DNA from: Gammaproteobacteria bacterium
GTDB taxonomy: Bacteria; Pseudomonadota; Gammaproteobacteria; JACCYU01
Direction of reading: 5' to 3'
Length of the DNA stretch: 64,000 bases
Assembly (NCBI GenBank): GCA_050740315.1
Contig: JBOIDC010000004.1
Coordinates: forward strand, 4,918 to 68,917
The translations under genes and the position numbers were made by a program. The notes under the pieces are model-generated. The model made no database searches. It was not told where the DNA came from and saw only the letters and a program-made list of their open reading frames with translations. Of the stretch, positions 12,638 to 28,921 are shown piece by piece; position 1 is the stretch's first letter, and the number at the start of each line of letters is the position of its first letter.

Positions 12638-12677
12638 ACGCTGGATTATTCGATCCGGACGCCGCCGGCATTCATGA

Positions 12678-13160
12678 TCAGTAGGCGGGCTTTTCGCTGC
12701 GCAGAAACAGCAGCGCGCCCGACGGCCTTTCCGCCGCGCCATGCGGCAGCCCCCTGGGCGCGAAATGATAGTCGCCGGCTTTCAATATCACGCCTTCTCC
12801 GAGATGCAGTTCGCCCTCCAGCACCAGACATTCCTCGTCGGCCACGTGCACGTGCGCGGGCAGCCGCGCGCCAGGCTCGCGCCGCAGCCGGAACGATGTC
12901 GCGCGCGCGGCACTGATCAATAACCAGGTGTGCGGACGGCCGCGCTTGCCGTCGCATTTCGCGGCATGGCGCCAGACCTGCGGAAACACGTCGATCACGA
13001 CATCTTCCGCCATATCCGGCTATTTGGTGGTGGCCAGCGCGACCGTAAACGCGCGGCATGGTCGCCTCGTAAAACGCATTGAAGGCGTCCCTGTCGCGGC
13101 GCGCAATCCGGTCGATGAGCAGCGCGTAGTTTTCATCCGCCGCTCCGCCGTGACGCGGGC
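12678..13160 (-). pseudogene. Degraded ECF sigma factor / ChrR-type anti-sigma remnant: sigma region-2 fused to an anti-sigma cupin domain, with a frameshift
   Basis: ADENYALLIDRIARRDRDAFNAFYEATMPRVYG (sigma-70 region 2.1) lies in one frame. AEDVVIDVFPQVWRHAAKCDGKRGRPHTWLLISAARA (region 2.2-2.4) lies in another and runs directly into a cupin (HVHVADEECLVLEGEL...GDYHFAPRGLPHG). Sigma region 4 and the anti-sigma zinc domain are absent. Confidence 0.55.
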
Positions 13161-13535
13161 ATCGAGCGAATGCAGCGGGTTGGTCGACATGATTCGAAGT
13201 ATACGGAGCACGACCGCGACTAGGCAAACGGGCGGTCCCGATGTCCGAGTCTTCCACGGGTTGCGAGCCGGACGCGCGCGGATCACGCTCCACGCGCTAG
13301 CCTGTGATCATGGGCGACCTGCTCCGTGCACTGGCAACCTGGCCACGCTCCGCTATCATTCTAATGAATGGCTTGCAGCAGCATCAGTATGCGATGGTAC
13401 GCAAGGACATGACGCTCCCGGGTTGCCCATTTGCAGTTCGCATACTGAAACGGCATTACAGCGGTCATATTTCTTTTTTGGCGATGCCAGAAGACGTAAC
13501 CATCAGCCCGATCCTTGCCCTGAAGGAGGCCGAAC

Positions 13536-14930
13536 ATGGCGCTGTGGAAACCCGACCCGACCTTTTATCCCTCCCCCCGCATGGCGATGCAGGCGCCACC
13601 CGAAACGCTGGCGTACGTCGCAGCCTTCAATCCGACGCCTGATGGCCGCCCGGATGCGATGACCGTGGTGGACCTGGCGCCCGACTCGTCCAGCTATGGC
13701 CAGATCGTCGGCCGCACCGAGATGCCGAACGCCGGCGATGAACTGCATCACTTCGGCTGGAACGCATGCAGCTCGGCGCTATGCCCGTACGCGCCGCACC
13801 CGCACATCGAGCGGCGTTATCTGGTGGTGCCGGGGCTCCGCTCGTCGCGCATCCATATCATCGATATCAAGCCTGATCCCCGCAATCCGAAGCTCGTCAA
13901 GACCATCGAGCCGGAAGACGTTTTCAAACGCGCGCCGTATTCACGCTTTCATACGATCCATTGCGGGCCGGAGGGCATCTACATCAGCGCGCTGGGATCG
14001 CAGGACGGTGATGGGCCGGGCGGCATCTTTCTGCTGGATCACTTCTCGTTCGACGTGCTGGGCCAGTGGGAAATGGAGCGCGGCCCGCAGTATCTGGCCT
14101 ACGACTTCTGGTGGCATCTGGCGCACGACACGATGATTACCAGCGAATGGGGCACGCCGAACATGATCGAGAACGGTCTGGTGCCGGATCTGCTGCTGAA
14201 CGGGAAATATGGCCGCCACGTGCACATCTGGGATTTGCGCCGGCGGCGGCACGTGCAGGCGCTCGATCTGGGCGCGGAGCAGCAACTGGTGCTGGAATTG
14301 CGCGCCGCGCATGATCCCACCAGGACATATGGTTTCGTCGGCGTGGTGATCTCGCTCAAAGACCTGTCGAGTTCGATCTGGCTCTGGCATCGCGACAACG
14401 GCGAGTGGAAAATCCAGAAGGTCGTCGAGATTCCCGCCGAATCGGCCGAACCTGAAAACCTGCCGCCGTTGCTGCAAGGCTTCAAGGCAGTGCCGCCGCT
14501 GGTCACCGACATCAATCTGTCACTTGACGATCGGTGGCTGTACGTCTCGTGCTGGGGCACGGGCGAGCTGCGGCAGTATGACGTATCCGATCCGTTCAAA
14601 CCCGAGCTCACCGGTTCGGTGCATCTGGGCGGCATCGTGCGCCGCACGCCGCATCCCAAAAAACCAGATCAACCTTTGAACGGCGCGCCGCAGATGGTGG
14701 AGGTGAGCCGCGACGGCAAGCGCGTGTATTTCACCAACTCGCTGTATCACGCCTGGGACGAGCAGTTCTATCCGGAGGGCATGCAGAGCTGGATGGTGAA
14801 GCTCGATGCGAATCCCGCCGGCGGCCTCAGGATCGATCCGGACTTCTTCGTAGCGTTCCACGGCTACCGCGCACACCAGATCCGCCTGGACGGCGGCGAC
14901 TGTTCTTCGGATTCTTATTGCTATCCGTGA
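13536..14930 (+). CDS. Selenium-binding protein SBP56 family (methanethiol oxidase MtoX / SELENBP1 homologue)
   Basis: 464 aa with the family hallmarks recalled from SELENBP1: DELHHFGWNACSS, HCGPEG, LSLDDRWLYVSCWGTGELRQYD, C-terminal GGDCSSD. An AAGGAGG ribosome-binding site precedes the ATG. Confidence 0.9.
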   Translation: MALWKPDPTFYPSPRMAMQAPPETLAYVAAFNPTPDGRPDAMTVVDLAPDSSSYGQIVGRTEMPNAGDELHHFGWNACSSALCPYAPHPHIERRYLVVPGLRSSRIHIIDIKPDPRNPKLVKTIEPEDVFKRAPYSRFHTIHCGPEGIYISALGSQDGDGPGGIFLLDHFSFDVLGQWEMERGPQYLAYDFWWHLAHDTMITSEWGTPNMIENGLVPDLLLNGKYGRHVHIWDLRRRRHVQALDLGAEQQLVLELRAAHDPTRTYGFVGVVISLKDLSSSIWLWHRDNGEWKIQKVVEIPAESAEPENLPPLLQGFKAVPPLVTDINLSLDDRWLYVSCWGTGELRQYDVSDPFKPELTGSVHLGGIVRRTPHPKKPDQPLNGAPQMVEVSRDGKRVYFTNSLYHAWDEQFYPEGMQSWMVKLDANPAGGLRIDPDFFVAFHGYRAHQIRLDGGDCSSDSYCYP

Positions 14931-15650: not shown

Positions 15651-16205
15651 ATGGCGTCGGTACGCAGAATCGATTGGCTGAGTGTCGAGGACTATCTCGT
15701 CGCGGAAGAGGTGGCCGAGGTACGGCACGAGTATGTCGCGGGCGCCGTGTACGCGATGGTGGGTGCCACCGCGCGCCATAATCGCATCGCCGTCAGGCTC
15801 GCATCTCGTCTGGAGTCGCACCTTGCTGGTTCGCCGTGCCAGACGTTCATCTCCGACATGAAAGTCTGCGCCGCCGACGCGTTTTATTACCCGGACGTAA
15901 TCGTGACCTGCCAACCCGTGGCGCCCGAGGCCGTTTACCTCACCGAACCCGTGCTGATCGCGGAAGTGCTATCGGAATCCACCGAAGGACGCGACCGGCT
16001 GGAAAAGTGGGCGGCTTATCGCGCGCTGCCGAGCCTGCGCGAATACGTGTTGATCGCCCAGGACCGCCCGGCCGTTGAAGTTTATCGGCGCAATGAAGAG
16101 GGCTGGGATCAAATCAGCCTGGATTCGGGTGAGACCATGGAACTCGTCTCGCTTGACCTCGAGGTTCCCCTAGACGAACTCTACGCCGGATTGCCGACGG
16201 CGTGA
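15651..16205 (+). CDS. Uma2-family (DUF820) endonuclease
   Basis: EYVAGAVYAMVGATARHNRIAVRLASRL... pattern typical of Uma2 PD-(D/E)xK proteins; 184 aa. Confidence 0.75.
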   Translation: MASVRRIDWLSVEDYLVAEEVAEVRHEYVAGAVYAMVGATARHNRIAVRLASRLESHLAGSPCQTFISDMKVCAADAFYYPDVIVTCQPVAPEAVYLTEPVLIAEVLSESTEGRDRLEKWAAYRALPSLREYVLIAQDRPAVEVYRRNEEGWDQISLDSGETMELVSLDLEVPLDELYAGLPTA

Positions 16206-16447
16206 TTGGGTCGGCTAACTTCCGCAACTGAAACTTGCCAAAGCAATTCAGGCTTCGAAGGACGAAACCGCATCGTTGCCGATTGCTATTTGATCCCGTA
16301 GCGTAGGGCTTGGCGCGGTTGCGGCGCACGCGGTTCAATCCTGACCTGCTTGGGGGATCGCTCTGATAACCAACGGAGGCGCGATTCTTCTCGTCTAAGG
16401 CACGACTACTTTTCAGAATTACTGTCTTCCGATGTACAATCGCGTCA

Positions 16448-17503
16448 ATGGGGCGCACGGTGTACACAAATATAAGAGAATCCCTGCGGGAGCTTTACTT
16501 AAAAGATAGCTGCTCTTGGCTGGTCGGCTTCAGCGGGGGCAAAGACAGTACCATGTTGGCATCTTTGGTGTTCAATGCGGTGCTTTCAGTGCCTACCAAC
16601 CAGCGCAAGAAGCCTGTCGCTATTCTTTGTACCGACACGCGCGTGGAGATTCCAGCCATTGTTGAGATGGTTGAAACAACGTTGGCGCGGATGCACAAGC
16701 ATTCCCAGCAGCACGATCTCAACATCGAAGTACACTTGCTAAAACCGCCACCCGAGCAATCGTTCTGGGTCAACATAATCGGCCGCGGCTATCCGCCACC
16801 TAACCGTAAGTTCCGCTGGTGTACGCAGCGCATGAAAATTGACCCCGTCACTGCTTTCGTTAATCAGCGGCTGGGACATTGGGGCGAGCACCTCGGCGCG
16901 CGTCGCGCCGAAAGCTCCACTCGCGGCCAAACGATGGCGGGGCGCGAAAACCGCAATGGCCTGCATCGCCATCCCGATTTGCCCCGCGTGTGGGTGTCCA
17001 ATCCCATTGAATTTCTCACTACCGAGGAAGTCTGGGCGTATCTGTTACAGAAAGCTAATCCTTGGGGCGGCGACAATCGTGCCCTTTATAAGCTCTACGC
17101 CAGCGCCTCCAATGGGGAATGTCCCATTCAAATCGACACCAGCACTCCAGCCTGCGGGCACTCACGATTTGGCTGCTGGACATGCACAGTCGTTGTGCGA
17201 GACAGGGCCAGCGAGGGCCTGCTCGCCGCCGGCGACGAACGCATGGAACATCTGCTCGGTTTTCGCGAGACGCTCCTAGAATTCCGTGATCCTGAAAATG
17301 GCTGGCGCGACAACCGCCGTATGAACGGTGCGCGGGCACCTGGCCCGCTGACAATTGAAGCGCGGCGTGAACTTCTTAAACGCCTGCTCAAATTACAAGA
17401 AGAAACAACCCTGCCACTAATTACTCCAGAAGAATTATTGTTAATTCAGCAAATGTGGAAGGCGGCGCGCGACCCGACGGCGGTCGTGGCGTTGCCCGAA
17501 TAA
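16448..17503 (+). CDS. PAPS-reductase-family PP-loop ATP pyrophosphatase, DndC/SspD-like (DNA sulfur-modification type)
   Basis: PP-loop FSGGKDST. C-terminal CGHSRFGCWTCTVV cysteine cluster reminiscent of the DndC/SspD family; 351 aa. Confidence 0.7.
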   Translation: MGRTVYTNIRESLRELYLKDSCSWLVGFSGGKDSTMLASLVFNAVLSVPTNQRKKPVAILCTDTRVEIPAIVEMVETTLARMHKHSQQHDLNIEVHLLKPPPEQSFWVNIIGRGYPPPNRKFRWCTQRMKIDPVTAFVNQRLGHWGEHLGARRAESSTRGQTMAGRENRNGLHRHPDLPRVWVSNPIEFLTTEEVWAYLLQKANPWGGDNRALYKLYASASNGECPIQIDTSTPACGHSRFGCWTCTVVVRDRASEGLLAAGDERMEHLLGFRETLLEFRDPENGWRDNRRMNGARAPGPLTIEARRELLKRLLKLQEETTLPLITPEELLLIQQMWKAARDPTAVVALPE

Positions 17504-17694
17504 TGAATGACCAGCGGGGTGCCATAATGAATGCCGACCTCAACAAATCAAACCGCTTGCGAGAAACGGAAAAGAAGGTCGCCCAGGAACTCGGCATTCG
17601 CCCCGACACGTTACGCCGCATGTTGGCGAAGGTGGAAGAATACAGTGAAAGTCACCGCGCCCAGGTTTGCCAGATGATTTGCTTAACATCCTAA
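17500..17694 (+). CDS. Small putative HTH DNA-binding protein
   Basis: Short ORF with AQELGIRPDTLRRMLAK helix-turn-helix-like segment. Weak; start uncertain (ATG 17500 or 17524). Confidence 0.3.
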   Translation: MMNDQRGAIMNADLNKSNRLRETEKKVAQELGIRPDTLRRMLAKVEEYSESHRAQVCQMICLTS

Positions 17695-17759
17695 AGGATG
17701 ACCTTTTCGCTCATGAAGAGCGCCGCCCGGTCTCCTCGCGCAATTAACCGCCATCTTGC

Positions 17760-18674
17760 GTGCACGTATTAACTCAAGAACGGCGCTGGCTTAAAGTCGC
17801 CGCGAACCTCAGGGTTGACCGCAAGCACAATATCGCCCCCCACAAGCCGCTTTTGCTATTGGTCGTTGTAGGGCTTGCCGAAGAAGGAAAACTCGCGCGG
17901 CCAGTCTTAGCGCTGACCGGCGAGCTCACATTCCGTTTTCTTGCATTCTGGACAATCGTCGCCAACCGCCGCTCACAGCGACCGGACATTCGCCTGCCGT
18001 TCTATCATCTCCATAACGACGGTTGCTGGACGCTGCTAGACGTCGAAGGAACGACTACTAGCGAACGTAGCCGTGCAGTTACCGCGCAGCTTGACGCACA
18101 GTTCCACGCCTGCCTGCACAATCCCGACTTCCGCGAGCAGTTTCGAAGAATCCTGATCGCGAGGTACTTTACCGACGCCGGCGAACGCGCCGCTCTTTAC
18201 GACTTGACTGACCTGCCAGCTCCGCCCGATGCCATCGAAGAAGCGGACGCCAACCTTTACGTCGAGTCGCGGAGGCGAGGGCGCGAAGCGCGCTTCCGGC
18301 TGACCGTCGTACCGGCCTACAACTACACCTGTGCACTTACCGGTTATCGCTGCGTTACGGTAAATGCCGGCAGCATCGTGGACGCTGCTCACATCCACCA
18401 GTTCGCTGACAGTCGCAACAACTACCCGCAAAACGGTATTGCGCTCTGCAAGAACGCTCACTGGCTTTTCGATCAAGGTCTGTGGTCGCTTACAGACGAC
18501 TACGAGATTATTGTCGCCACACACCGCTTCCATGAGTCTGGAGATAGCGCGCTGCTGCTAGCCCGAATGGCGGGCCATCGCATTCTGCTTCCCGGCAAGC
18601 GAGACTATTGGCCTGACAAAGCGTACTTGGCGTGGCACCGACAACATAGGTACATCAAAGAAAAGACCGAATGA
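17760..18674 (+). CDS. HNH endonuclease with ~190-aa N-terminal uncharacterised (possibly modified-DNA-sensing) domain
   Basis: C-terminal HNH motif: CALTGYRC...DAAHIHQFADSRNNYPQNGIALCKNAHWLFDQGLW; 304 aa. Confidence 0.8.
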   Translation: MHVLTQERRWLKVAANLRVDRKHNIAPHKPLLLLVVVGLAEEGKLARPVLALTGELTFRFLAFWTIVANRRSQRPDIRLPFYHLHNDGCWTLLDVEGTTTSERSRAVTAQLDAQFHACLHNPDFREQFRRILIARYFTDAGERAALYDLTDLPAPPDAIEEADANLYVESRRRGREARFRLTVVPAYNYTCALTGYRCVTVNAGSIVDAAHIHQFADSRNNYPQNGIALCKNAHWLFDQGLWSLTDDYEIIVATHRFHESGDSALLLARMAGHRILLPGKRDYWPDKAYLAWHRQHRYIKEKTE

Positions 18675-18681
18675 TGGAATT

Positions 18682-21599
18682 ATGAGCATCGTTCCAAAAC
18701 ATCGTGGAGCTTCTTTTCACAAGTGTGATCTTCAAGTCCATACGCTCAGGGATGCGAATTGGAATGGGCCCTTTCATCGGCTGAATGACCGAGTAGCTTT
18801 TGCTCAGGCGCTGGTTGCCGACTGCCGGCGCAAGAGCATCGAAGCGATTGCGATCACGGACCATCACGATCTGTGCCTTTGGAGAATTATTCACGATGCT
18901 GCTCAGAATGAGCAGAAGCCGGCTGGTTCGGCAAACCAAGAAGAGGCTTCCCCTGTCGTTTTTCCTGGTGTTGAGCTCACCTTGTCCAACCCCGCTTGCC
19001 AAGCATTGCTGATACTCGATCCAGACTTGACTGACAAGACCCTAAACTACATTTGGGGCGCTCTCGGAGCGACTCCCTCGGGCGTGGACGAGGAAAAGAC
19101 AACTCAGACGGTTGCACTGCCCCTTAACAAGTCCATTGCAACGATCGCCCAAGCGCTCTCCCAAATTCGGCTTAACCCTGAGGAAGCAGATCCAAACAAG
19201 TTCAGATCGCTTAGAGGAAAATTCATATTGTTACCGAATGTGAAGTGTGGTGGACATAAGACGATCATGCGAAAAGGTAACCAGGCGGCTTATACCACGA
19301 TGCCGTTTGTGGGAGGCTACATTGAGGGATGCGAGTATTCATCAATTAATGTGGGAGACTGCAATATTCTTGAAGGACGAGTACAAGCTTGGGGATCAAA
19401 GAGTGTCGCCGTATTTCAGACCTCAGACTGCCGCGAGGCGAAAGTTGTCACTATCGATGGCAATAAGCACACCGATTTCATCAATCTCGGCAAGTGGCCG
19501 ACGTGGGTGAAATGGGCACAACCGTCAACGGAAGCCTTGCGACAGGCATGCTTGGCAAGGCAGTCACGGATCAGCCATACCGAGCCCAGCTACCCTCTTC
19601 TGCAGATCGTGGGGGTGAAGGTGAGTGACAGCCAGTTCCTCGGTCCAGTGGAACTCGGTCTCAGCCCGCAGTTCAATGCTTTTATCGGCGGGCGAGGCAC
19701 CGGTAAATCCTCGTTGATCGAGTACATTCGGTGGGCACTCTGCGATGACCCTGTGGAAGTTTCCGAAATGGTGGAGCTTCCAAATTTTCAAAAGCGCAGG
19801 AAAGCCCTGGTGGAAGCGACACTCAAACCATCCGGAGCGAAAGTGACTGTGTTTTACAAGAAAAACGAGGTCATCTACAAAATTGAAAGGACTATTACCG
19901 CCAAGGAGGACGCCATCGTGGTTGTGGATCCCTCTGGGGCGTCGCAGCAGATGTCGTCGGCTCAAGCTCGCAGACAATTTCCGGTTGTATCGTATGCCCA
20001 GAAGCAGCTAAGTTGCGTGGGTACTCTGCCGGACGAAATTAAACGGCTCATTACAGATCCTATCAGTGAGCGTCTGGCGCAGATTCAGGATCGAATTGAG
20101 ACCTCCATCCTTCCACAAATTAAAGAGCAGCGCGCAAGAGAACTACGTCTCGCCAGCCTGAACACACAGCTTGCCGACATCGCTACATCGCTCAAGGACA
20201 TAAAAGATCAGATTCACGCGCTTGAGATACAATTGCAGGATCTCGCGCCAGAGCAGCAGAGCATCATCTCGTCGCATGAGCTGCTGAGTCAGCAACATCA
20301 GTGGGTGAATCGCTCGGCGGAACTCCCGAGCAAGGTAGCAGAACTCTTGTTGCAGATGCGCCATCAGGTAAGTGCGCTAGGCAAGATTGATCTGCCCGAT
20401 GCCCTACCCAACTCGATACCGAACTCGATCCAAGTCGACGCGATCTCGGCGTCTGCCAACGCCTATGTGAAGAGAGTGCTGGATCAGTTAGATGCCTTGA
20501 TCGCTGATGCGCAATCCGGCAGCTGGCTCAACAAAGCAGATCGCCAAGCCTTAGAGCAACTCCAAAAAAAGCGTACGGTGCTCACCAACGGGAATACAAC
20601 GAATGCGTCAAAACGAGCGCGAAAAACCAGACGCAGATGGAGGAGATTCAAAAGCTCAACAAACAAGTCGGTGAACTCGAAGCCAAGCAGTCAGCGCTAG
20701 AAGCGGAGCGCAAGACTCTTATGGCAGTCTTTGACCGATTTGCTGACACGCCGTGGAAGGCTTTTATGGACGCGGTGCGTGAGCGCGCGAACGTCTTGAG
20801 GGACCAGTGCACCATCATTGGCGGGCAGGCTCAGTACGAATTCAAGCCGCACCTCGCTTTTTGTGGTGATGATCGTCAGGTCCGCGAGTCACTGTATAGC
20901 TTGGTGCAAAACAGAAACGTCAGAGACAGCGATCAGAAAGTAAGAGACTTGGCAGCTATTGTTACCTCTGCGGATCACCCGCTTCAGCGGTGGCGAGAGG
21001 TGGTGGCTGAGCTGGATGCGCTTCTGGCAAGCAAGGGCTCTAACGTACTGCCGCAGGCGCCACTATTTACAAGCTCAGGTTTCACGACAGCTAATCTTGA
21101 ATCAATTCGAAACGGGGTCACACAGGACGCGTTGGAGCAAATCCGTTTCTTGAACATCGACGATCGAATCGAATTCGTCTTTCGCATGGGCAAAAAGACA
21201 GATGGATCGGATAACTACATTCCTTTTGATTCTGCATCACCAGGACAGCAGGCTACGTGTCTGCTTCGCACGTTACTCGCGCAATCAGGTGCGCCCCTGC
21301 TGATAGATCAGCCCGAAGAAGATCTTGATAACGAGCAGATCCACCTGCTTTCCGAGCAAATTGCGGAAACCAAGCACAACAGGCAAATGCTGTTTGTAAG
21401 CCACAATGCAAATATCGTCGTCAACGGAGATGGGGAACTTATAGCCTGTTTCTGCTACCGCGACCCTAACGACAACACCCGCGGGAAGATCGAGCCGGTC
21501 GGCTCTATTGACTACGCTCCTGTGCGCGAAACTATTACATCAGTAATGGAAGGGGGCCGCCGGGCATTCGAATTACGCAAAGAAAAATATGGTTTTTGA
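18682..21599 (+). pseudogene. PHP-domain phosphoesterase fused to SMC/ABC-type coiled-coil ATPase (PplA-like / DndD-like), split by a frameshift around 20560-20640
   Basis: N-terminal PHP metal-ligand pattern (CDLQVHT...AIAITDHHD). Walker A FNAFIGGRGTGKSSL at ~aa 335; long coiled coil. The ABC signature SPGQQ, Walker B LLIDQPEEDLD and H-loop FVSHNANI lie in a second ORF (20637-21599) in a different frame. An A7 run sits at 20562-20568. Confidence 0.7.
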
Positions 21600-21740: not shown

Positions 21741-21989
21741 ACTATGCCGTACTCGCGAGCTGACGAACATGCAATAACTCGCTGGATGTCAGCGGTTCGA
21801 TCTGAGATTCGCGCATGGTGACCACCGCAACGGTCTCCCCCACGGCGTTGAACACTTCCAAACTATAACCCGGTCCTGCTCAGATCGCCCCGGATGGTAT
21901 TCAACCACAGTCGCCACGTCTCCGGCGCGAAATCTATGCTCTGGCAAGTCCGTTTTCAGTGCTACTCGGGTAAATAGCTGGTATTTCAT
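21741..21989 (-). pseudogene. DUF4926-like small protein, frameshifted
   Basis: MKYQLFTRVALKTDLPEHRFRAGDVATVVEYHPG in one frame. GYSLEVFNAVGETVAVVTMRESQIEPL continues in another frame after an in-frame stop. Confidence 0.4.
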
Positions 21990-22001
21990 GTCTTGTCCAG
22001 A

Positions 22002-22322
22002 TTAAAGGGTGATGAACTTGGTCTTGCCGGTTCCTTCTTCAGTCATCCAAATCGTCGCGACGCGGAGAACATCGCCATTTGGTCCAGTTATGGCGCCGCG
22101 AATCATATACTTCGGACCATACTCCGTCTGATCGATCAATTCGGCTTCAATCGACAGCAGTTGCTCGCGTATATCATCGAGGAGTCTGTGTGAATTTTCG
22201 AGCGTGTAACCCGCCCGAGCTAATAACGCTGATTTGGCATCCGCTGACCGCCATTGAAGAAGATGGCTTGTAACCTTTTCGGTGGCAATGAGGGCACAGG
22301 TGGCAACCTCATCGGCCCTATC
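22002..22322 (-). CDS. DUF6883-like protein (partner of DUF4926; putative toxin-antitoxin-like pair); start codon unclear
   Basis: Translation ...ENSHRLLDDIREQLLSIEAELIDQTEYGPKYMIRGAITGPNGDVLRVATIWMTEEGTGKTKFITL matches the DUF6883 C-terminal pattern. The ORF is open right up to the stop of the upstream desulfurase gene, with no canonical in-frame start. Confidence 0.4.
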   Translation of the reverse strand, partial: DRADEVATCALIATEKVTSHLLQWRSADAKSALLARAGYTLENSHRLLDDIREQLLSIEAELIDQTEYGPKYMIRGAITGPNGDVLRVATIWMTEEGTGKTKFITL

Positions 22323-23453
22323 TCAGCCACGAAGGTCCTGAGCCGCTTGCTTCACGACAGCCGCAGTCAAATCAATCTCGTGAGCCTGCTTCATAGCGTT
22401 GAGTGAAAAACGAACCATTTGCCGTGCGGCCGGCTGATTCGGCTTCATTGCCTTAACAACATGCGACGGTTCGTCGGAATCAGCCAAGCAAGCCGACCCT
22501 CCCGACGCGCAAATACCCGCTTGGTCAAATAGTAGCAACAATGCTTCGGATTCAACGCCGTGGAAGGTAATATTGGTCGTGTTTGCCAGCCGCTGAATCT
22601 TATGCCCATTCAGCTCGGTATCCGGTACCGAGTCCAGAATACTTTCCTCTAAAGTATCGCGGAGCGGGCGCACTTTCTTCTCATAACTCGGCAAGCTCTT
22701 ACGCGCGAGTTCGGCGGCTCTGCCCATGCCGACGATCAAGGCGACGTTTTCCGTACCGCCACGCCGATTACGCTCCTGGTGTCCGCCGTGGACAAACGGC
22801 AAAAACGGTGTCTTACGGCGGACGTATAATGCGCCTATTCCCTTCGGTGCGTGGAATTTGTGGCCGGTGAGCGACAAATAATCGGTCTGCACCTCGCGCA
22901 CATCAATATCGATTTTACCAACGGCCTGTACCGCGTCGCAGTGGTATAAGACCCCTCGCGAGCGGCAAATGTCAGCTATCGCGTTCACCGGGAATAGCAC
23001 TCCGGTTTCATTATTCGCCCACATGAGCGAGACCACAGCCGTTTCATCCGAAATCGCGTTCGCCAAATCCGCCAGCTTCAAGACACCGTCGTAATCCACC
23101 GGCAGATAAGTTACCCGATAGCCCTCGCGCTCGAGCGCCATACAGTAGTTCAGCACCGAGGAATGCTCGACCGCTGATGTGACGATGTGCCGTTTGCTCG
23201 GATTGGCTTTCAGCGCCGCAAGGATGGCCGAATTATTGCTCTCCGTCGCGCAAGACGTGAAAACGATCTCCAGCGGGTGTGCTCCGATCAGCTCTGCGAC
23301 CCGCGCCCTGGCCGTCTCGACCGCCGTCTTCAGCTTCGACCCAAACTTATAGCTGCTGGATGGATTGCCCCACTCAGATGTGAAGTAAGGCATCATCGAG
23401 TCCAGCACTTCCGGGGACACCGAAGTAGTTGCATTACTATCAAGGTAAATCAT
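22323..23453 (-). CDS. Cysteine desulfurase (class V aminotransferase, IscS/NifS/DndA-like), stand-alone
   Basis: MIYLDSNATT N-terminus, PLP-lysine region SLTGHKFHAPKGIGALYV, active-site SGGSAC. No iscU/iscA/hscBA follow. Confidence 0.9.
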   Translation of the reverse strand: MIYLDSNATTSVSPEVLDSMMPYFTSEWGNPSSSYKFGSKLKTAVETARARVAELIGAHPLEIVFTSCATESNNSAILAALKANPSKRHIVTSAVEHSSVLNYCMALEREGYRVTYLPVDYDGVLKLADLANAISDETAVVSLMWANNETGVLFPVNAIADICRSRGVLYHCDAVQAVGKIDIDVREVQTDYLSLTGHKFHAPKGIGALYVRRKTPFLPFVHGGHQERNRRGGTENVALIVGMGRAAELARKSLPSYEKKVRPLRDTLEESILDSVPDTELNGHKIQRLANTTNITFHGVESEALLLLFDQAGICASGGSACLADSDEPSHVVKAMKPNQPAARQMVRFSLNAMKQAHEIDLTAAVVKQAAQDLRG

Positions 23454-23745
23454 ATTCCCCTTACAAGTAATTAATCCAAACTCGGTCGACGGCACCCGCA
23501 GCTCGCCCCCGAGCTCACGGTCGGCCGCGACCTCGGATTCGATGGGCAGTTTATGTCAGGGACACCTTGGCCCTGATCCTAAACCCATTGCGCGAGTGCC
23601 GACGGCGTTCAGCGTCGAACGGGGCCTCAGTGCCCCTATTAGCCTCGGCATAGTTTATCCCACGTTCGGTGGCCTATTTGAGCGAATGCAATACGGTCAT
23701 GGGCATTGAAAACTCACGGTACTAGCCGCAGTTCACCTCCGCAAC

Positions 23746-24545: not shown

Positions 24546-25151
24546 ATGCGGCGCCATAAAAGCTTGAGCATTACTCGCCTCGGTTTAATCTTCGTTTGGG
24601 CCGGAGCAATCCTGTTCCTCGGGCCGGGTTGCGACCCGGAGACGGCTACCGACCGCGAACCCGCGGGCGCCAACGCCGATGCGGATCACGACGCAGCGGG
24701 CAAGAAAACCGCAGCGTCCAAACAGGCCGCGGCGGTGTTCGATGCGAGCTTCCACAAACTCGAAGACTGGAACCAGATGCAATCGCTCTCGAAATGGCGC
24801 GGCCAGTATCTGGTGCTGAATTTTTGGGCGACCTGGTGCAAGTCCTGCCACCACGAAGTGCCGGAGCTGAACAAGCTCTACAACCAGTTCAAGGACAAAA
24901 ATACCGTGGTCGTGGGTCTTGCCGTGGATAATGCCGACAAGGTCAAAGATTATGCGGCGAAATATGGCGTCGATTATCCGATCCTCGTGGGCGGTAACGA
25001 GGCGCTGGAATTATCGAAAAAGATGGGCAACAAGGTCGTCGGACTGCCCTTCACGATCATGATCACGCCGCAAGGCGAAGTGGTCGAGACCATTCTCGGC
25101 GCCACCGAGAAAGGCACTCTGCCCAAGGTTCTCACGCCGCATCTAATGTGA
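24546..25151 (+). CDS. TlpA/ResA-like periplasmic thiol:disulfide oxidoreductase (thioredoxin fold), probable lipoprotein
   Basis: Signal peptide ...AILFLGPGC, WATWCKSC active site. Likely start is the internal ATG at 24546. Confidence 0.8.
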   Translation: MRRHKSLSITRLGLIFVWAGAILFLGPGCDPETATDREPAGANADADHDAAGKKTAASKQAAAVFDASFHKLEDWNQMQSLSKWRGQYLVLNFWATWCKSCHHEVPELNKLYNQFKDKNTVVVGLAVDNADKVKDYAAKYGVDYPILVGGNEALELSKKMGNKVVGLPFTIMITPQGEVVETILGATEKGTLPKVLTPHLM

Positions 25152-25189
25152 GACTTCGGGCATTCAAACCCAAACAGGAGGTAACCGTT

Positions 25190-26731
25190 ATGCGACTATT
25201 AAAAATTCCGACTGCCAATACGCGCAGGGCGAGTCCCAGGGTATTGGCGGCGGCCTTCGGCGTAGGGCTTGGGGTCGCCGTGTCGGGCGCGGCGCTCGCC
25301 AAGGACTACCCAACCGTCACAGTGGTTGATCCGTCGCCGGTGAACTGGCTTTGGATAACGTGGAACACCATGGAAGAAGCGGTGCGCGTGGACTACAACG
25401 GCCACACGCAACCCGCGCTGGCGGAGAGCTGGGAATGGAAAGATAACCAAACGCTGACGCTAGACATGCGCGACGACGCGGTGTTTCAGGACGGCAGCGC
25501 GTTCGATCCCGCGGTGTTCAAGCGCAGCTTCGACGAGGTGCAGAAGTGGGAAAACCCGCATCCGCCGGGCGCCTGGCTGAATTTCTCCAAGCAGGCCAGC
25601 ATGGAGACGCCGGATGATGACACGGTGGTGTTCAACACCGCGATGGTCGACGGCACCACCATCACCAAACTGCGCGGCATGCACGTCGGCAGCCAGAAGT
25701 TCTGGGGGCAGGGCGGTTTCAACACCGCCGAAGGCTCATCCGAAGGGAATTGGTGAGTCATCAAAGAACCCGGTCCGTGGGGGACTGGGCCATTTGAACT
25801 GGTAGCAGGTACGTCGTTGCTCGACAAGCGTTCTCCCGAAGTTGTGCTGGAGCCCAATGAAGAATACTGGAATCCGGCGCGTAAACCGACGGTGCGCGTG
25901 GTGTTCGACAATGTTATTCCGAAGGCCGAGGCCGTGAAAGACGTCGGCAGCGCGGACGGCGAGATCGATATTGTCACTGAACTGACACCGGCCGAGGCCC
26001 AGCAGGTGGAAGACAGCGATGCCGCAAATGTGGTCGCGAGCGACTCGAAGACCGTGCTGCTCGGGGTCTTCAATCAGACCAGCGGCGATTCCAAATGGAA
26101 TGACGTCAATCTGCGCAAGGCGGTCAACTACGCGGTGGATCGGCAAGGCGTCATCGATGACGCGATGATGGGTTACGGCAATCTCATGCCGGCCACCATC
26201 CTCGAAGGGAATTTCGGTTACAACGATAGTCTGGAGCCTTATGCGCATGACCCGGAGCAGGCCAGGCGGCTTGCGAAGGACGCCGACAAGACCGTCACCA
26301 TCGTGACCGACGAAGCGCACAAGGGCGTGGCCGATGCCGTGGCCGCGGATCTGAACGCCGCCGGTTTCGACGCGACCGTTAAGGTCGGAGAGCCTGCAGG
26401 CGAGTGGGACATCTGGCTAGTCGAGCACTTCGACTGGTCGCCGGAGTTCCCCGCCGCCGTGGTGCATCGCGAGTTCTTCGGCGACACGGGCGGGTTCCTC
26501 AAGTCACCGGGCGACAAGCAACTACAGGGCTTGATCGATCAGGCGATGAGTACCGTCGATAAGGACGAGCAGGAAGAAATCACGCAGGCGATCGAGAAAC
26601 ACATCTACGATCACGCCGATGCGCTGTTGCTGTTCGCGCCGCAAAAACTCTACGCGGTGCGCGACGGCGTGGACTTCACGCCTTACAAGTCCACGGTGCT
26701 GGAACTGGCGGAGACCATGGTGGACGAGTAA
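25190..26731 (+). pseudogene. ABC transporter substrate-binding protein, family 5 (peptide/nickel/opine type) with a single in-frame TGA at 25754-25756. Either a nonsense pseudogene or, less likely, a UGA-Sec readthrough.
   Basis: AGGAGG ribosome-binding site then ATG 25190. Signal peptide; family-5 motifs (ALAESWEW..., GTGPFEL, EPNEEYW). The reading frame is continuous across the TGA, and ORFs 25148-25756 and 25817-26731 are in the same frame. Total ~513 codons, normal for the family. Confidence 0.6.
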
Positions 26732-26840: not shown

Positions 26841-28793
26841 TTGATCATCGGCACTGCGGGTCATATCGATCACGGCAAGACCGCGCTCATCAAGGCATTG
26901 ACCGGCATCGACGCGGACCGCCTGGCCGAAGAGAAACGGCGCGGCATGACGATCGATCTGGGCTACGCGTATCACGAGCTGCCGGACGGCAATGTGATGG
27001 GCTTCGTGGATGTGCCCGGGCACGAGAAGTTCGTACACAACATGCTGTCGGGCGCGCTGGGTATCGACTATGTGCTGCTGGTGATCGCGGCCGATGACGG
27101 GCCGATGCCGCAGACTCGCGAACATCTGGCGATCGTCGATCTGCTGGCGATGAAGGAGGGTGTCGTGGCGCTTTCGAAAATCGATCTGGTCACACCGGCG
27201 CACATTGAAGAGACCGAACACGCGATACGCTCGATGCTGGCGGGCACGAGTCTCGCGGGAGCCGACGTTATGCGCGTATCCACGAAGAGCGGCTCTGGCC
27301 TCGATGCGCTTTACAAGCGGCTGGCGGAAGTCGCGAGAATACAATCACCCCGCGCCAGTAGCGGCCAATTCAGGCTGGCGGTGGATCGCTCATTCAGCGT
27401 GCGAGGCGCGGGCACCGTCGTGACCGGCACCGTGCATGCTGGCACGGTGCGCCCGGACGATCGTCTGACGGTTTCGCCGGCCGGCCTGAGCGCGCGGGTG
27501 CGCAGCATTCGCTGCCAGAACAAACAAACCAGTCTCGGACGGGCGGGCGATCGCTGCGCACTGAACCTGGCTGGCGCGAACCTTGATGCGCGGGCCATAC
27601 AGCGTGGCGACTGGATTCTCGCGCCGGTTCTGCACCGGCCTTCCGCGCGGCTCGATTGCCGGCTGCATATCTTGCTTTCGGAACCACGTCCGCTGCGCCA
27701 CTGGACGCCGGTGCATGTGCACGTCGGCGCGGCGGATATTAGCGGTCGCGTCGCGGTTCTGGAGAAGGAATCCATCGATCCCGGCGCGTCTGGGCTGGTA
27801 CAAATCGTACTGGACAAACCGATACCGGCGCTGCACGGCGACCGATTGATACTGCGCGATCAGTCGGCGCTGCGCACGGTTGGCGGCGGCTACGTGCTCG
27901 ATCCGACGCCGCCCGCGCGCGGGCGGCGCAAGCCGTATCGACTAGCGTCGCTTGCGGCGCTCGAACAACCGGCGCCCGCTGAGGCGCTCGAACGTCTGCT
28001 CGACCTGCGAGGCGCTACAGGACTGGATCTGGACTGGTTCGGCTTTGTCTGGAATCTGCGCGCTGAAGAATTCTACCGCCTTCAAAGCACGTGCGAGTTC
28101 CATGTCTTCGAAGCTACGGGAAATCGTACAGGCATCAAGTTTGCCGCCTGGCAGGCGCTGCGGAACGACGTTATCGAAGCGCTTGCCGAGCACCATCGGC
28201 GCGCACCGAATGAAACCGGCATCACCGAGGGCAAGCTCCGGCAGCTGCTGCGCGACCAGGCACCCGGCGCTTTGGTGAAGCTTGCGGTCAATGAATTGAT
28301 CGCCGAAGGTGCGATCCTGCGTCACGGCGCGCTGTTGCATCTGCCGGGGCATGTCGATCGCCTGTCGCCGATCGAGGAAAACCTGTGGCGGCGGTTGTAT
28401 GCGAAGATCGACGCGGGCGGACTGCGACCGCCCCGCCCGCGCGAGCTGGCCGAAATGTTCCGGGAGGATCGGACGCGCATCAAGGCGTTGCTCAAGCGCC
28501 AGGCGAAAGCCGGAAAAATCTGCGAGATTTCCGACGAGCTTTATTACCCGCTGCACACCATCGCCGAACTGGCCGCCACGACCGAGGCGCTTTGCAATGC
28601 GCAAAACGGCAACCCCATCACCATGCGCATCTTCCGCGAGGGCACGGGCATCGACCGTAACGTCACCATCGAGGTGCTGGAATATTTCGACCGCGTGGGC
28701 CTGACCTTGCGCGTCAATAACGGACGGCGGCTGCAGGGGACCGCGGCCGCAATCTTCGGCGCGCGGGACTCGAATCGGGTGGCGCGCTTATAA
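26841..28793 (+). CDS. selB: Selenocysteine-specific elongation factor SelB (TTG start)
   Basis: MIIGTAGHIDHGKT..., DVPGHEKF, then C-terminal winged-helix domains ending ...ILEYFDRVGLT. Collinear with E. coli SelB as recalled. GGAG lies 7 nt upstream of the TTG. Confidence 0.92.
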   Translation: MIIGTAGHIDHGKTALIKALTGIDADRLAEEKRRGMTIDLGYAYHELPDGNVMGFVDVPGHEKFVHNMLSGALGIDYVLLVIAADDGPMPQTREHLAIVDLLAMKEGVVALSKIDLVTPAHIEETEHAIRSMLAGTSLAGADVMRVSTKSGSGLDALYKRLAEVARIQSPRASSGQFRLAVDRSFSVRGAGTVVTGTVHAGTVRPDDRLTVSPAGLSARVRSIRCQNKQTSLGRAGDRCALNLAGANLDARAIQRGDWILAPVLHRPSARLDCRLHILLSEPRPLRHWTPVHVHVGAADISGRVAVLEKESIDPGASGLVQIVLDKPIPALHGDRLILRDQSALRTVGGGYVLDPTPPARGRRKPYRLASLAALEQPAPAEALERLLDLRGATGLDLDWFGFVWNLRAEEFYRLQSTCEFHVFEATGNRTGIKFAAWQALRNDVIEALAEHHRRAPNETGITEGKLRQLLRDQAPGALVKLAVNELIAEGAILRHGALLHLPGHVDRLSPIEENLWRRLYAKIDAGGLRPPRPRELAEMFREDRTRIKALLKRQAKAGKICEISDELYYPLHTIAELAATTEALCNAQNGNPITMRIFREGTGIDRNVTIEVLEYFDRVGLTLRVNNGRRLQGTAAAIFGARDSNRVARL

Positions 28794-28803
28794 TCGCAAG
28801 AAT

Positions 28804-28900
28804 GGAAGAGATTCGATCCCCGGTGGGGCGTCCGGACTTCAAATCCGGGAGGGGCCGTCACGCGGTCCTTGGTGGGTTCGACTCCCACTCTCTTCCGCCA
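28804..28900 (+). tRNA. selC: tRNA-Sec (selC), anticodon UCA
   Basis: 97 nt: GGAAGAG...GGACTTCAAATCC...long variable arm...GGTTCGACTCC...CTCTTCCGCCA. Near-identical architecture to E. coli selC. Confidence 0.9.
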
Positions 28901-28921
28901 TTGTGAATCCCGGAATTCCGC

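What the first reader, a model, noticed from the sequence alone, without database searches (positions are those of the whole stretch)
18682..21599. PHP-domain + SMC/ABC ATPase giant protein split by a frameshift at a poly-A tract
A PHP phosphoesterase N-domain, a Walker A at ~aa 335, a long coiled coil and the ABC signature/Walker B/H-loop are distributed over two ORFs that overlap at 20637-20700 in different frames. An A7 run lies at 20562-20568. The architecture (PHP + OLD/SMC-like ATPase) resembles single-gene anti-phage proteins of the Ppl type, or a DndD-like ATPase with an added nuclease domain. Either it is inactivated or the assembly has a homopolymer indel.
Basis: seen in the sequence. 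Interest (0 to 1): 0.65.

Follow-up and report, generated by a model that had tools for sequence, protein, structure and literature searches.

The report
Frameshifted TrlF-type PHP–SMC ATPase gene
The two overlapping reading frames are one gene of the already catalogued TrlF family (a nuclease-like PHP domain fused to a Rad50/SMC-type ATPase, a probable anti-phage protein). A shift in a run of seven A's has broken it, inside a small defence island where most other genes are broken too, so it is most likely an ordinary dead gene.

Summary
ORF 18682-20700 and ORF 20637-21599 are the two halves of one gene. Adding one A gives a 972-aa protein, not 990.

That protein matches NCBIfam NF045780 (TrlF family AAA-like ATPase) end to end: 442 bits against a cutoff of 350. 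It has more than 100 full-length single-ORF homologues of up to 70% identity. It is not Ppl (160 bits against 1000), DndD or OLD. Structure prediction confirms an N-terminal PHP fold and an SMC/Rad50-like head with a roughly 270-residue coiled coil. The break lies in the returning arm of that coil.

The same A7 sequence occurs in three assemblies. The surrounding 6-kb island carries four more lesions: two frameshifts in the DndC-like gene, one in DUF4926, and a lost start codon. Large housekeeping genes in the window are intact.

Best reading: real pseudogenisation of a cargo gene in a decaying island (about 0.7). The site reads A_AAA_AAG, a slippery -1 heptamer, so leaky full-length product is possible. 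No stimulatory structure or conservation supports a programmed shift. Interest is low.

The parts
18682..20570 (+). TrlF-family gene, authentic N-terminal 630 codons (phase 1): PHP domain, N-half of the ABC head, outgoing coiled-coil arm, apex and the first part of the returning arm
   Evidence: NF045780 positions 1-621. 100% tblastn HSP for aa 1-630. Alignments A1 and A3.
18682..19626 (+). PHP-fold phosphoesterase domain (aa 1-315). Family-invariant residues: D16, Q18, H20, D24, D60, H61, D63, E98, D249, R251
   Evidence: AF2 pLDDT 92.8. Foldseek PDB top 20 hits are PolC/PolIII-alpha PHP, PHP phosphoesterases and RNase AM, prob 1.0, TM about 0.4. Pfam PHP only E 0.062.
19687..19710 (+). Walker A / P-loop GGRGTGKS (aa 336-343)
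   Evidence: Invariant in 46 homologues.
20029..20828 (+). Antiparallel coiled coil (aa 450-716), with an apex loop at aa 566-581 (20377-20424). The frameshift falls in helix 618-645 of the returning arm
   Evidence: Full-length AF2 model, pLDDT 87.2, helices 450-517, 523-565, 582-612, 618-645, 650-687, 690-716. Best PDB matches are SMC, Rad50, LmuB, JetC and MukB heads with coiled coil.
20564..20570 (+). A7 tract, the frameshift site. In ORF1 phase it reads C AAA AAA G, giving the heptamer A_AAA_AAG (20565-20571)
   Evidence: Relatives read L-Q-K-A-Y (L003: CTT CAA AAG GCA TAC). A5 or A8 would be in frame.
20571..20700 (+). Out-of-frame tail of ORF1 (42 basic codons plus stop). It has no homology to the family
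20571..21599 (+). Authentic C-terminal 342 codons in phase 0 (listed ORF starts at ATG 20637): rest of the returning arm and the C-half of the ABC head. Motifs: signature SPGQQ 21237-21251, Walker B/D-loop LLIDQPEEDLD about 21297-21329, H-loop His 21402-21404
   Evidence: NF045780 positions 644-944. Alignments.
16439..17720 (+). Context: DndC-like (PAPS-reductase-type) gene broken by two 1-nt deletions. It reads in three frames: 16439-17476, 17473-17664 and 17664-17720
   Evidence: tblastn of the intact 446-aa homologue from L090. Sequence at the two sites. TIGR03183 353 bits.
17760..18674 (+). Context: intact SBD(ScoMcrA-type)-HNH endonuclease. Its stop codon is 7 nt before the TrlF start codon
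   Evidence: PF13391 plus PF26340. NF045808 129.8 bits, below the cutoff of 180. 67-80% identical homologues of about 300 aa. Junction sequence.
21757..21989 (-). Context: DUF4926 gene with a frame-disrupting indel (aa 1-32 in one frame, aa 40-77 in another)
22005..22292 (-). Context: homologue of the 111-aa partner of DUF4926. The frame is open but has no ATG/GTG/TTG start codon
22323..23495 (-). Context: intact NifS/DndA-like cysteine desulfurase that closes the conserved module

Best explanation
The two ORFs are one TrlF-family gene. Its product has an N-terminal PHP phosphoesterase domain fused to an SMC/Rad50-class ABC ATPase, whose two head halves are joined by a roughly 270-residue antiparallel coiled coil.

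The gene sits as single-gene cargo directly behind an SBD-HNH endonuclease. This is the variable slot of a conserved module: DndC-like gene, then SBD-HNH, then (on the opposite strand) a cysteine desulfurase.

In this organism the gene has been inactivated by a real length change in an A tract (A7; A5 or A8 would be in frame). ORF1 keeps the PHP domain, Walker A and about two thirds of the coiled coil, followed by 42 junk residues. It lacks the signature motif, Walker B and H-loop, so it cannot form an ATPase site.

The whole island is decaying. The DndC-like writer gene has two frameshifts, DUF4926 has one, and its partner has lost its start codon. Only the SBD-HNH and the desulfurase remain intact.

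Inferred, not shown: intact TrlF proteins work like Ppl and SbcCD. Nucleotide-dependent head engagement and the coiled coil would hold DNA, probably DNA ends, and the PHP domain would degrade it as an anti-phage or anti-plasmid effector.
For: Family and single-gene origin:
- ORF1 and ORF2 match profile positions 1-621 and 644-944 of NF045780.
- The repaired protein scores 442.2 bits against a cutoff of 350, over positions 1-944 in one stretch.
- There are more than 100 full-length homologues of 930-985 aa, up to 70% identical, and 568 or more loci in species-representative genomes.

Site of the break:
- Homologues align in phase 1 up to LEQLQ and in phase 0 from KAY, so the switch is inside the A7 run.

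Fold:
- The N-terminal domain has a PHP fold.
- The remainder is an SMC/Rad50-like head with coiled coil, and the break lies in helix 618-645.

The frameshift is real:
- An identical sequence including A7 occurs in a Logan assembly of SRR27067773 (4670 bp, 100% identity).
- It also occurs in GCA_975322995.1, which differs from the window elsewhere by 3 mismatches and a 196-bp indel.
- Neither the A8 nor the A5 intact protein exists among about 15 billion proteins.

Lesions cluster in the island:
- DndC-like gene, two 1-nt deletions at non-homopolymer sites.
- DUF4926 frameshift and loss of its partner's start codon.
- PolA (918 aa), UvrD (934 aa), a hybrid kinase (861 aa), LysA and DapF have full domain coverage.

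Not a family trait:
- Only 1 of 82 other TrlF loci is split, and at a different place.

Cargo and defence context:
- There is no conserved neighbour across 80 loci.
- Immediate neighbours are type I/IIG/III R-M, MADS, PbeA, SIR2, TIR, integrases and conjugation proteins.
- Close relatives are solitary or sit in a CBASS/SIR2-HerA island.
- In relatives of the HNH module, the slot holds GmrSD, NERD, an HD protein or other genes instead.
Against: - Raw reads could not be inspected. All three assemblies might come from related or identical read sets, so a systematic homopolymer error cannot be excluded formally.
- An A tract is the classical site for such errors.
- The site is a canonical -1 slippery heptamer, so 'inactivated' may be too strong, because some full-length protein could be made.
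- No TrlF protein has been shown experimentally to defend against phage. In Photorhabdus no phenotype was assigned to trlF (bioRxiv 10.1101/2020.06.02.129163).
- The family has Gln rather than the catalytic Glu after Walker B. It also has QxH and DxR in place of two canonical PHP His motifs. Catalytic activity of either domain is therefore unproven.
Confidence: 0.7

Rival explanations
1. This is a sequencing or assembly artefact. The organism has an intact 971- or 972-aa gene, and the A run was mis-called by one or two bases.
For: - The shift is exactly in the only homopolymer of 6 or more bases in the gene.
- The sequence is from a MAG.
- Everything else about the gene looks conserved: all family-invariant residues are present in both halves.
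Against: - The same A7 is found in three assemblies made by different pipelines, one of which differs from the window elsewhere.
- A7 is short for a systematic error.
- The two DndC-like lesions in the same island are at non-homopolymer sites (GACCC-GACGG and GCCCA-GGTTT).
- Large genes elsewhere in the window are uninterrupted.
- No intact allele is present in the protein collection.
Confidence: 0.12
2. Expression is regulated or leaky. Ribosomes slip -1 on A_AAA_AAG (as in dnaX and IS elements), RNA polymerase slips on the A run, or the tract length varies in the population (phase variation). The cell would then make mostly a truncated protein and a small, tunable amount of full-length TrlF.
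For: - In ORF1 phase the site is A_AAA_AAG (20565-20571). A -1 slip yields exactly the homologous full-length protein (...LQKK|AYGAH...).
- By established knowledge of E. coli dnaX, this heptamer is intrinsically shifty.
- Defence genes are often phase-variable (general knowledge).
Against: - No relative shares the frameshift: more than 100 homologues are single ORFs, and the nearest reads CAA AAG GCA.
- There is no significant downstream structure (MFE z = -0.52), no Rfam element and no Shine-Dalgarno-like motif upstream.
- The three assemblies show no tract-length variation.
- A7 is shorter than typical contingency tracts.
- Neighbouring genes carry plain inactivating lesions.
Confidence: 0.12
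3. This is a functional two-piece protein. The N-fragment (PHP, N-head, coiled coil) and a separately translated C-fragment reassemble through the coiled coil. Rad50 head halves do this when co-expressed.
For: - The break lies within the coiled coil (helix 618-645), not in a globular domain.
- In-frame ATGs exist at 20637 and 20721. The second was called as a gene start in another assembly.
Against: - No homologues are split at this point. Shorter hits have scattered end points typical of fragments.
- Neither ATG is preceded by a well-spaced ribosome-binding site.
- ORF1 carries a 42-residue out-of-frame basic tail.
- Only about 50 residues of the returning arm remain on the N-fragment.
Confidence: 0.04

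Closest known systems
TrlF (Photorhabdus laumondii temperature-restriction locus trlG-trlF-trlR; NCBIfam NF045780 'TrlF family AAA-like ATPase')
   Same: - End-to-end profile match above the curated cutoff once repaired (442 against 350 bits).
- Same length class (930-985 aa).
- Same PHP plus ABC-ATPase/coiled-coil architecture.
- Occurs in mobile and defence islands.
   Different: - Here the gene is frameshifted.
- No TrlG (AlbA_2/HATPase_c_4) or TrlR neighbour is present. Only 5 of 80 loci have a TrlG-like neighbour.
- Here it follows an SBD-HNH gene.
- The function of TrlF itself is untested in the source paper.
Ppl (single-gene anti-phage system, Gao et al. 2020; NF042955, PADLOC PDLC02208)
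   Same: - PHP domain fused to an ABC-type NTPase in one polypeptide.
- A solitary defence-island gene.
- HMM similarity in the ATPase halves.
- E. coli Ppl is described as an ssDNA 3'-5' exonuclease that is inhibited by bound NTPs and activated by 3'-OH ends (review PMC12904381). This is the best mechanistic analogue.
   Different: - Scores only 160 bits against the Ppl cutoff of 1000.
- The PHP region does not align to the Ppl profile.
- PADLOC Ppl hits are partial, at 53 and 80 bits.
- It is a sister family, not a member.
SbcCD / Mre11-Rad50 and SMC-type defence ATPases (LmuB, JetC)
   Same: - ABC head split by a long antiparallel coiled coil.
- The best structural matches are SMC, Rad50, LmuB, JetC and MukB.
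- A phosphoesterase nuclease is coupled to the ATPase.
   Different: - The nuclease is a PHP domain fused in cis, not a separate calcineurin-like Mre11/SbcD.
- There is no zinc hook or hinge. The apex is a Pro-rich loop.
- Walker B is followed by an invariant Gln, not Glu.
DndD (SMC-like ATPase of DNA phosphorothioation systems)
   Same: It is an ABC ATPase with a coiled-coil insert, and it lies close to a DndC-like gene and a cysteine desulfurase.
   Different: - No DndD model hit and no DndE partner.
- Relatives of the DndC-like/HNH module lack any ABC ATPase in the basal state and carry other cargo in the same slot.
- No other TrlF locus is next to DndC.
dnaX-type programmed -1 frameshift site (A_AAA_AAG)
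   Same: An identical slippery heptamer in the zero frame. A -1 slip restores the homologous protein.
   Different: There is no upstream SD-like element, no downstream stem-loop and no conservation. The heptamer is the automatic by-product of a length change in a Lys-coding A tract.

Membership tests
TrlF family AAA-like ATPase (NF045780) | Whole-protein HMM score at or above the curated cutoff (350 bits), with end-to-end profile coverage | tested here: met
   The repaired 972-aa protein scores 442.2 bits over profile positions 1-944/944 in one stretch. As encoded, neither half reaches the cutoff: 249.7 and 180 bits.
TrlF family AAA-like ATPase (NF045780) | N-terminal PHP-like phosphoesterase domain | tested here: met
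   AF2 pLDDT 92.8. The top 20 Foldseek PDB hits are PHP domains. Sequence-level Pfam support is weak (E 0.062).
TrlF family AAA-like ATPase (NF045780) | ABC/SMC-type ATPase head (Walker A, signature, Walker B, H-loop) split by a coiled coil | tested here: met
   Motifs are invariant in alignment A3. The model and the SMC/Rad50 structural matches agree.
TrlF family AAA-like ATPase (NF045780) | A single uninterrupted ORF of about 930-985 aa | tested here: not met
   The gene is split at A7 (20564-70). Of the other loci, 81 of 82 are uninterrupted.
TrlF family AAA-like ATPase (NF045780) | Operon with trlG (AlbA_2 plus HATPase_c_4) and trlR, as in Photorhabdus | tested here: not met
   The neighbours here are the DndC-like gene, SBD-HNH and DUF4926. 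A TrlG-like neighbour occurs in only 5 of 80 loci, so this is not a family-wide feature.
Ppl anti-phage protein (NF042955 / PADLOC Ppl) | HMM score at or above the cutoff (1000 bits) over the full length, including the PHP region | tested here: not met
   160.2 bits, ATPase parts only. PADLOC hits are 53 and 80 bits and partial.
Ppl anti-phage protein (NF042955 / PADLOC Ppl) | Demonstrated anti-phage activity, or 3'-5' ssDNA exonuclease activity regulated by NTPs | not testable with these tools
   Needs phage challenge and biochemistry.
DndD (phosphorothioation ABC ATPase) | Match to DndD models and pairing with DndE | tested here: not met
   There is no DndD family among the NCBIfam hits. Only weak PbeC P-loop hits appear in PADLOC. 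No DndE-like gene is present, and the 63-aa ORF is a displaced piece of the DndC-like gene.
OLD-family nucleases | ABC ATPase fused to a TOPRIM nuclease domain | tested here: not met
   No TOPRIM hit was found. The non-ATPase domain is PHP.
Programmed -1 ribosomal frameshift (dnaX / IS type) | Slippery heptamer X_XXY_YYZ in the zero frame | tested here: met
   A_AAA_AAG at 20565-20571.
Programmed -1 ribosomal frameshift (dnaX / IS type) | Stimulatory elements (upstream SD-like motif, downstream stem-loop or pseudoknot) | tested here: not met
   MFE z-score is -0.52 for 20540-20660. There is no Rfam hit. No GGAG-type motif lies in the 20 nt upstream.
Programmed -1 ribosomal frameshift (dnaX / IS type) | Conservation of the frameshift among homologues | tested here: not met
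   All close and distant homologues are single ORFs, and the site reads CAA AAG GCA in the 68% relative.
Phase-variable contingency locus | Tract-length polymorphism between or within populations | tested here: inconclusive
   Three assemblies all have A7. No A5-A9 allele was found in JGI metagenome contigs (0 hits) or in the protein collection. Reads were not available.

The most novel reading that the evidence does not exclude
The A7 allele may not be dead but a low-output switch. Ribosomal -1 slippage on A_AAA_AAG, or A-tract length variation in the population, would keep a potentially self-toxic PHP-SMC nuclease at a trickle, or in an ON/OFF state. It would be co-transcribed with a phosphorothioate-sensing HNH nuclease whose own DndC-like writer has been lost.
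Probability: 0.1. Interest if true: 0.45.

Novelty: new member of a known kind. Interest (0 to 1): 0.22.

Why it matters
The finding itself matters little. It corrects an annotation: NCBI lists the halves as two separate 'AAA family ATPase' proteins, MGH8501214.1 and MGH8501215.1. It also adds one degraded member to a curated but functionally untested family.

It has two modest uses:
- It shows that TrlF behaves as exchangeable single-gene cargo in defence hotspots. That supports testing intact TrlF genes as Ppl-like anti-phage nucleases.
- The locus drew attention to a recurrent DndD/E-less module (DndC-like gene, SBD-HNH, cysteine desulfurase) whose writer gene decays repeatedly while the PT-sensing nuclease persists. 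That module is the more interesting object for follow-up.

Tried and rejected
- **Ppl, DndD and OLD membership:** rejected on HMM cutoffs and domain content.
- **Two independent genes:** rejected. No homologues split at this point, and shorter hits are fragments with scattered ends.
- **Programmed frameshift:** the slippery heptamer is present, but there is no structure, no Rfam element and no conservation.
- **TrlF as the missing DndD of the adjacent DndC-like module:** rejected. Basal versions of the module have no ATPase, the slot carries unrelated cargo elsewhere, and no other TrlF locus is near DndC.
- **Search for alternative A-tract alleles:**
  - A DNA pattern covering A5-A9 in JGI metagenome contigs gave 0 hits.
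  - An exact look-up of the A8 and A5 proteins found neither.
  - Both results are uninformative about within-sample polymorphism.
- **Sequence search of the PDB with the family profile:** this gave only generic ABC/SMC hits. The top hits are E-to-Q mutant ABC-F proteins, because the family naturally has Gln after Walker B.
- **Literature:** no experimental study of TrlF as a defence gene was found.
- **Promoter and terminator scans:** nothing above chance.
Full report
**Observation**

The window has ORF 18682-20700 (672 aa) and ORF 20637-21599 (320 aa) on the + strand, in different phases, overlapping at 20637-20700. The phase of ORF2 is open from 20508 and ORF1 closes at 20700, so any frame change must lie between these points.

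The two ORFs hit consecutive parts of one NCBIfam profile, NF045780 'TrlF family AAA-like ATPase'. ORF1 covers positions 1-621 (E 9e-74) and ORF2 covers positions 644-944 (E 1e-52).

**Where the frame changes**

Inserting one A into the tract gives a 972-aa ORF. Ten full-length homologues align to it over its whole length. They follow ORF1's phase up to ...LEQLQ and ORF2's phase from KAY..., so the switch is inside the A run. The homologues have one Lys fewer (LQ-KAY), and the 68%-identical relative reads CTT CAA AAG GCA TAC. The window allele is therefore either A5 plus 2 or A8 minus 1. Either A5 or A8 would be in frame.

**What the gene is**

- The repaired protein scores 442.2 bits against the curated cutoff of 350 for NF045780, over profile positions 1-944 in one stretch.
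- It scores 160 bits against a cutoff of 1000 for Ppl, and 129 bits against 475 for the Spaf_1101 family.
- More than 100 single-ORF homologues of 930-985 aa were listed, the best at 70% identity.
- At least 568 loci were found across bacterial phyla in species-representative genomes.

Pfam barely sees the N-terminal domain (PHP, E 0.062). An AlphaFold2 model of residues 1-315 (pLDDT 92.8) has only PHP domains as its top twenty PDB matches: PolC, Pol III alpha, PHP phosphoesterases and RNase AM, at probability 1.0 and TM about 0.4.

The full-length model (pLDDT 87.2) shows:
- an ABC head N-lobe with Walker A at residues 336-343;
- an outgoing helical arm at 450-565;
- a Pro-rich apex loop at 566-581;
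- a returning arm at 582-716;
- a C-lobe with signature SPGQQ (853-857), Walker B LLID (873-876) and H-loop His908.

Its best structural matches are SMC, Rad50, Lamassu LmuB, JetC, MukB and RecN heads with coiled coil. The frameshift lies in helix 618-645 of the returning arm. ORF1 alone therefore lacks the signature motif, Walker B and H-loop, and ends in 42 out-of-frame residues.

Two family-wide peculiarities stand out in a 46-sequence alignment:
- Walker B Asp876 is followed by an invariant Gln, not the catalytic Glu of ABC ATPases.
- PHP motifs I and V read QxH and DxR instead of HxH and DxH.

This explains why E-to-Q mutant ABC-F structures topped the PDB sequence search.

**Family context**

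Across 80 genome loci no neighbour family recurs in more than 12 loci. Immediate neighbours include:
- type I, IIG and III restriction-modification genes;
- MADS and PbeA components;
- SIR2 and TIR proteins;
- integrases and conjugative coupling proteins;
- in five Flavobacteriaceae loci, an AlbA_2/HATPase_c_4 protein like Photorhabdus TrlG.

The closest relatives are either solitary or sit in a CBASS plus SIR2-HerA island. TrlF thus behaves as a self-contained gene of defence and mobile islands.

The name comes from the Photorhabdus temperature-restriction locus, where no phenotype was assigned to trlF (bioRxiv 10.1101/2020.06.02.129163). I found no experimental test of TrlF in defence.

**Local context**

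The gene lies in a lower-GC stretch, about 0.51-0.58 against 0.60-0.65 in the flanks. Its start codon is 7 nt after the stop of an intact SBD(ScoMcrA-type)-HNH endonuclease at 17760-18674.

Homologues of that HNH (67-80% identical) recur in a conserved arrangement. A DndC-like gene of about 440 aa sits immediately upstream, full length in 15 loci. A cysteine desulfurase sits on the opposite strand downstream.

In the basal state the HNH-desulfurase gap is about 0.86 kb. It holds a DUF4926 gene and a 111-aa partner. Elsewhere the gap holds different cargo:
- GmrSD in L090 and L091;
- NERD in L089;
- a 924-aa HD protein in L102;
- DGQHR and ATPase genes in L106.

TrlF occupies this slot only in the window. 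TrlF is therefore exchangeable cargo, not the module's DndD.

**Lesions in the island**

- The window's DndC-like gene aligns to an intact 446-aa homologue in three frames (16439-17476, 17473-17664 and 17664-17720). This means two 1-nt deletions, both at non-homopolymer sites. The '63-aa ORF' is a displaced piece of this gene.
- DUF4926 is also read in two frames, and its partner has no canonical start codon.
- By contrast, PolA, UvrD, a hybrid kinase, LysA and DapF elsewhere in the window show full domain coverage.

**Real or artefact**

- The exact ORF1 protein occurs on a Logan assembly of SRR27067773 that is 100% identical to the window over 4670 bp. This stretch includes the A7 run and both DndC lesions.
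- It also occurs in GCA_975322995.1, which differs from the window elsewhere by three mismatches and a 196-bp indel.
- Neither the A8 nor the A5 protein exists in the 15-billion-protein collection. NCBI lists the halves as MGH8501214.1 and MGH8501215.1.
- A DNA pattern search for A5-A9 alleles in JGI metagenomes found nothing.
- Only 1 of 82 other TrlF loci is split, and at another place.

I conclude that the frameshift is most likely genuine and part of general decay of the island (confidence about 0.7). An assembly error remains possible (about 0.12) because reads were not available.

**Could it still be expressed?**

In ORF1's phase the site is A_AAA_AAG, the dnaX-type -1 heptamer. A -1 slip gives exactly the homologous protein. 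This is, however, the automatic consequence of a length change in a Lys-coding A tract.

- Nothing significant folds downstream (z = -0.52).
- Rfam finds nothing.
- There is no SD-like motif upstream.
- No relative shares the shift.

A small unregulated amount of full-length product, or phase variation, cannot be excluded (about 0.12). A two-piece functional ATPase is unlikely (about 0.04): no homologues are split here, and the shorter hits are fragments with scattered ends.

**Mechanism (inferred)**

The closest analogues are Ppl and SbcCD/Mre11-Rad50. Ppl is a PHP plus NTPase protein, described as an ssDNA 3'-5' exonuclease held off by bound NTPs and triggered by 3'-OH ends (PMC12904381).

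By analogy, intact TrlF proteins probably dimerise through nucleotide-bound heads, use the coiled coil to hold DNA, and degrade it with the cis-fused PHP domain. The Gln after Walker B suggests slow hydrolysis or nucleotide sensing rather than a fast motor. None of this has been shown for any TrlF protein.

**Verdict**

This is a new, degraded member of a known, curated family. Interest is low. The neighbouring module of DndC-like gene, SBD-HNH and desulfurase, and a possible selenoprotein gene nearby, are the more interesting by-products.

Noticed in passing
window 16439-18674 and 22323-23495; loci L089-L117: A conserved module recurs without DndD or DndE: a DndC-like gene (about 440 aa), then an SBD(ScoMcrA-type)-HNH (about 300 aa, 67-80% identical across many metagenomes), then a cysteine desulfurase on the opposite strand. 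A full-length DndC-like gene lies directly upstream in 15 loci. The gap after the HNH is a variable cargo slot (GmrSD, NERD, an HD protein, DGQHR/ATPase genes, and TrlF here). A PT writer next to a PT-binding nuclease is paradoxical. Published surveys report SBD-HNH genes as rarely linked to dnd (PMC7461809), or linked to DndD/E-centred clusters (PMC10853773).
   Followed up: partly
window 16439-17720; L089, L092, L093, L098, L112, L109/L110: The DndC-like gene decays repeatedly while the adjacent SBD-HNH stays intact. The window copy has two frameshifts, L092 has one, and other loci hold truncations or remnants.
   Followed up: partly
window 25148-26731, with the TGA at 25754-25756: Two SBP_bac_5 ORFs (202 and 304 aa) are joined in frame by a single TGA. 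A 5+8-bp interrupted hairpin (3-nt internal loops) starts 8 nt downstream of the TGA; its apical part is CCCGGUCC-GUGGG-GGACUGGG (MFE -22 kcal/mol, z -1.24). The gene lies just upstream of selB, tRNA-Sec and selA, so it may be a selenocysteine-containing protein rather than a broken gene.
   Followed up: partly
window 10397-14930 and 26841-30346: A selenium-utilisation neighbourhood. It contains tRNA-Sec at 28804-28896 (Rfam 71.2 bits), selB at 26841-28793, selA at 28922-30346, a SelD-like AIRS protein fused to a pyridine-nucleotide oxidoreductase domain at 10397-12742 (-), and an SBP56 selenium-binding-protein homologue at 13536-14930.
   Followed up: no
window 21757-22292 (- strand): A DUF4926 gene and its 111-aa partner form a small pair that is conserved next to the cysteine desulfurase in related loci and may be a toxin-antitoxin pair. 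Both are damaged here, by a frameshift and by loss of the start codon respectively.
   Followed up: partly
TrlF family alignment A3 (window residues Q18/H20, D249/R251, D876/Q877): The family invariantly has Gln instead of the catalytic Glu after Walker B (IDQPEED). It also has QxH and DxR in place of the canonical PHP HxH and DxH metal-binding motifs. This suggests nucleotide sensing or slow hydrolysis and an altered metal site.
   Followed up: no
window 15651-16205: A Uma2-family putative restriction endonuclease (PADLOC candidate PDC-S03, E 1.6e-24) lies just upstream of the low-GC stretch (GC falls below 0.60 from about 16000).
   Followed up: no
P0082, P0099 (662 aa): Some TrlF homologues begin at about residue 309 and lack the PHP domain entirely. 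These may be a PHP-less variant of the family, or genes split at the domain boundary.
   Followed up: no
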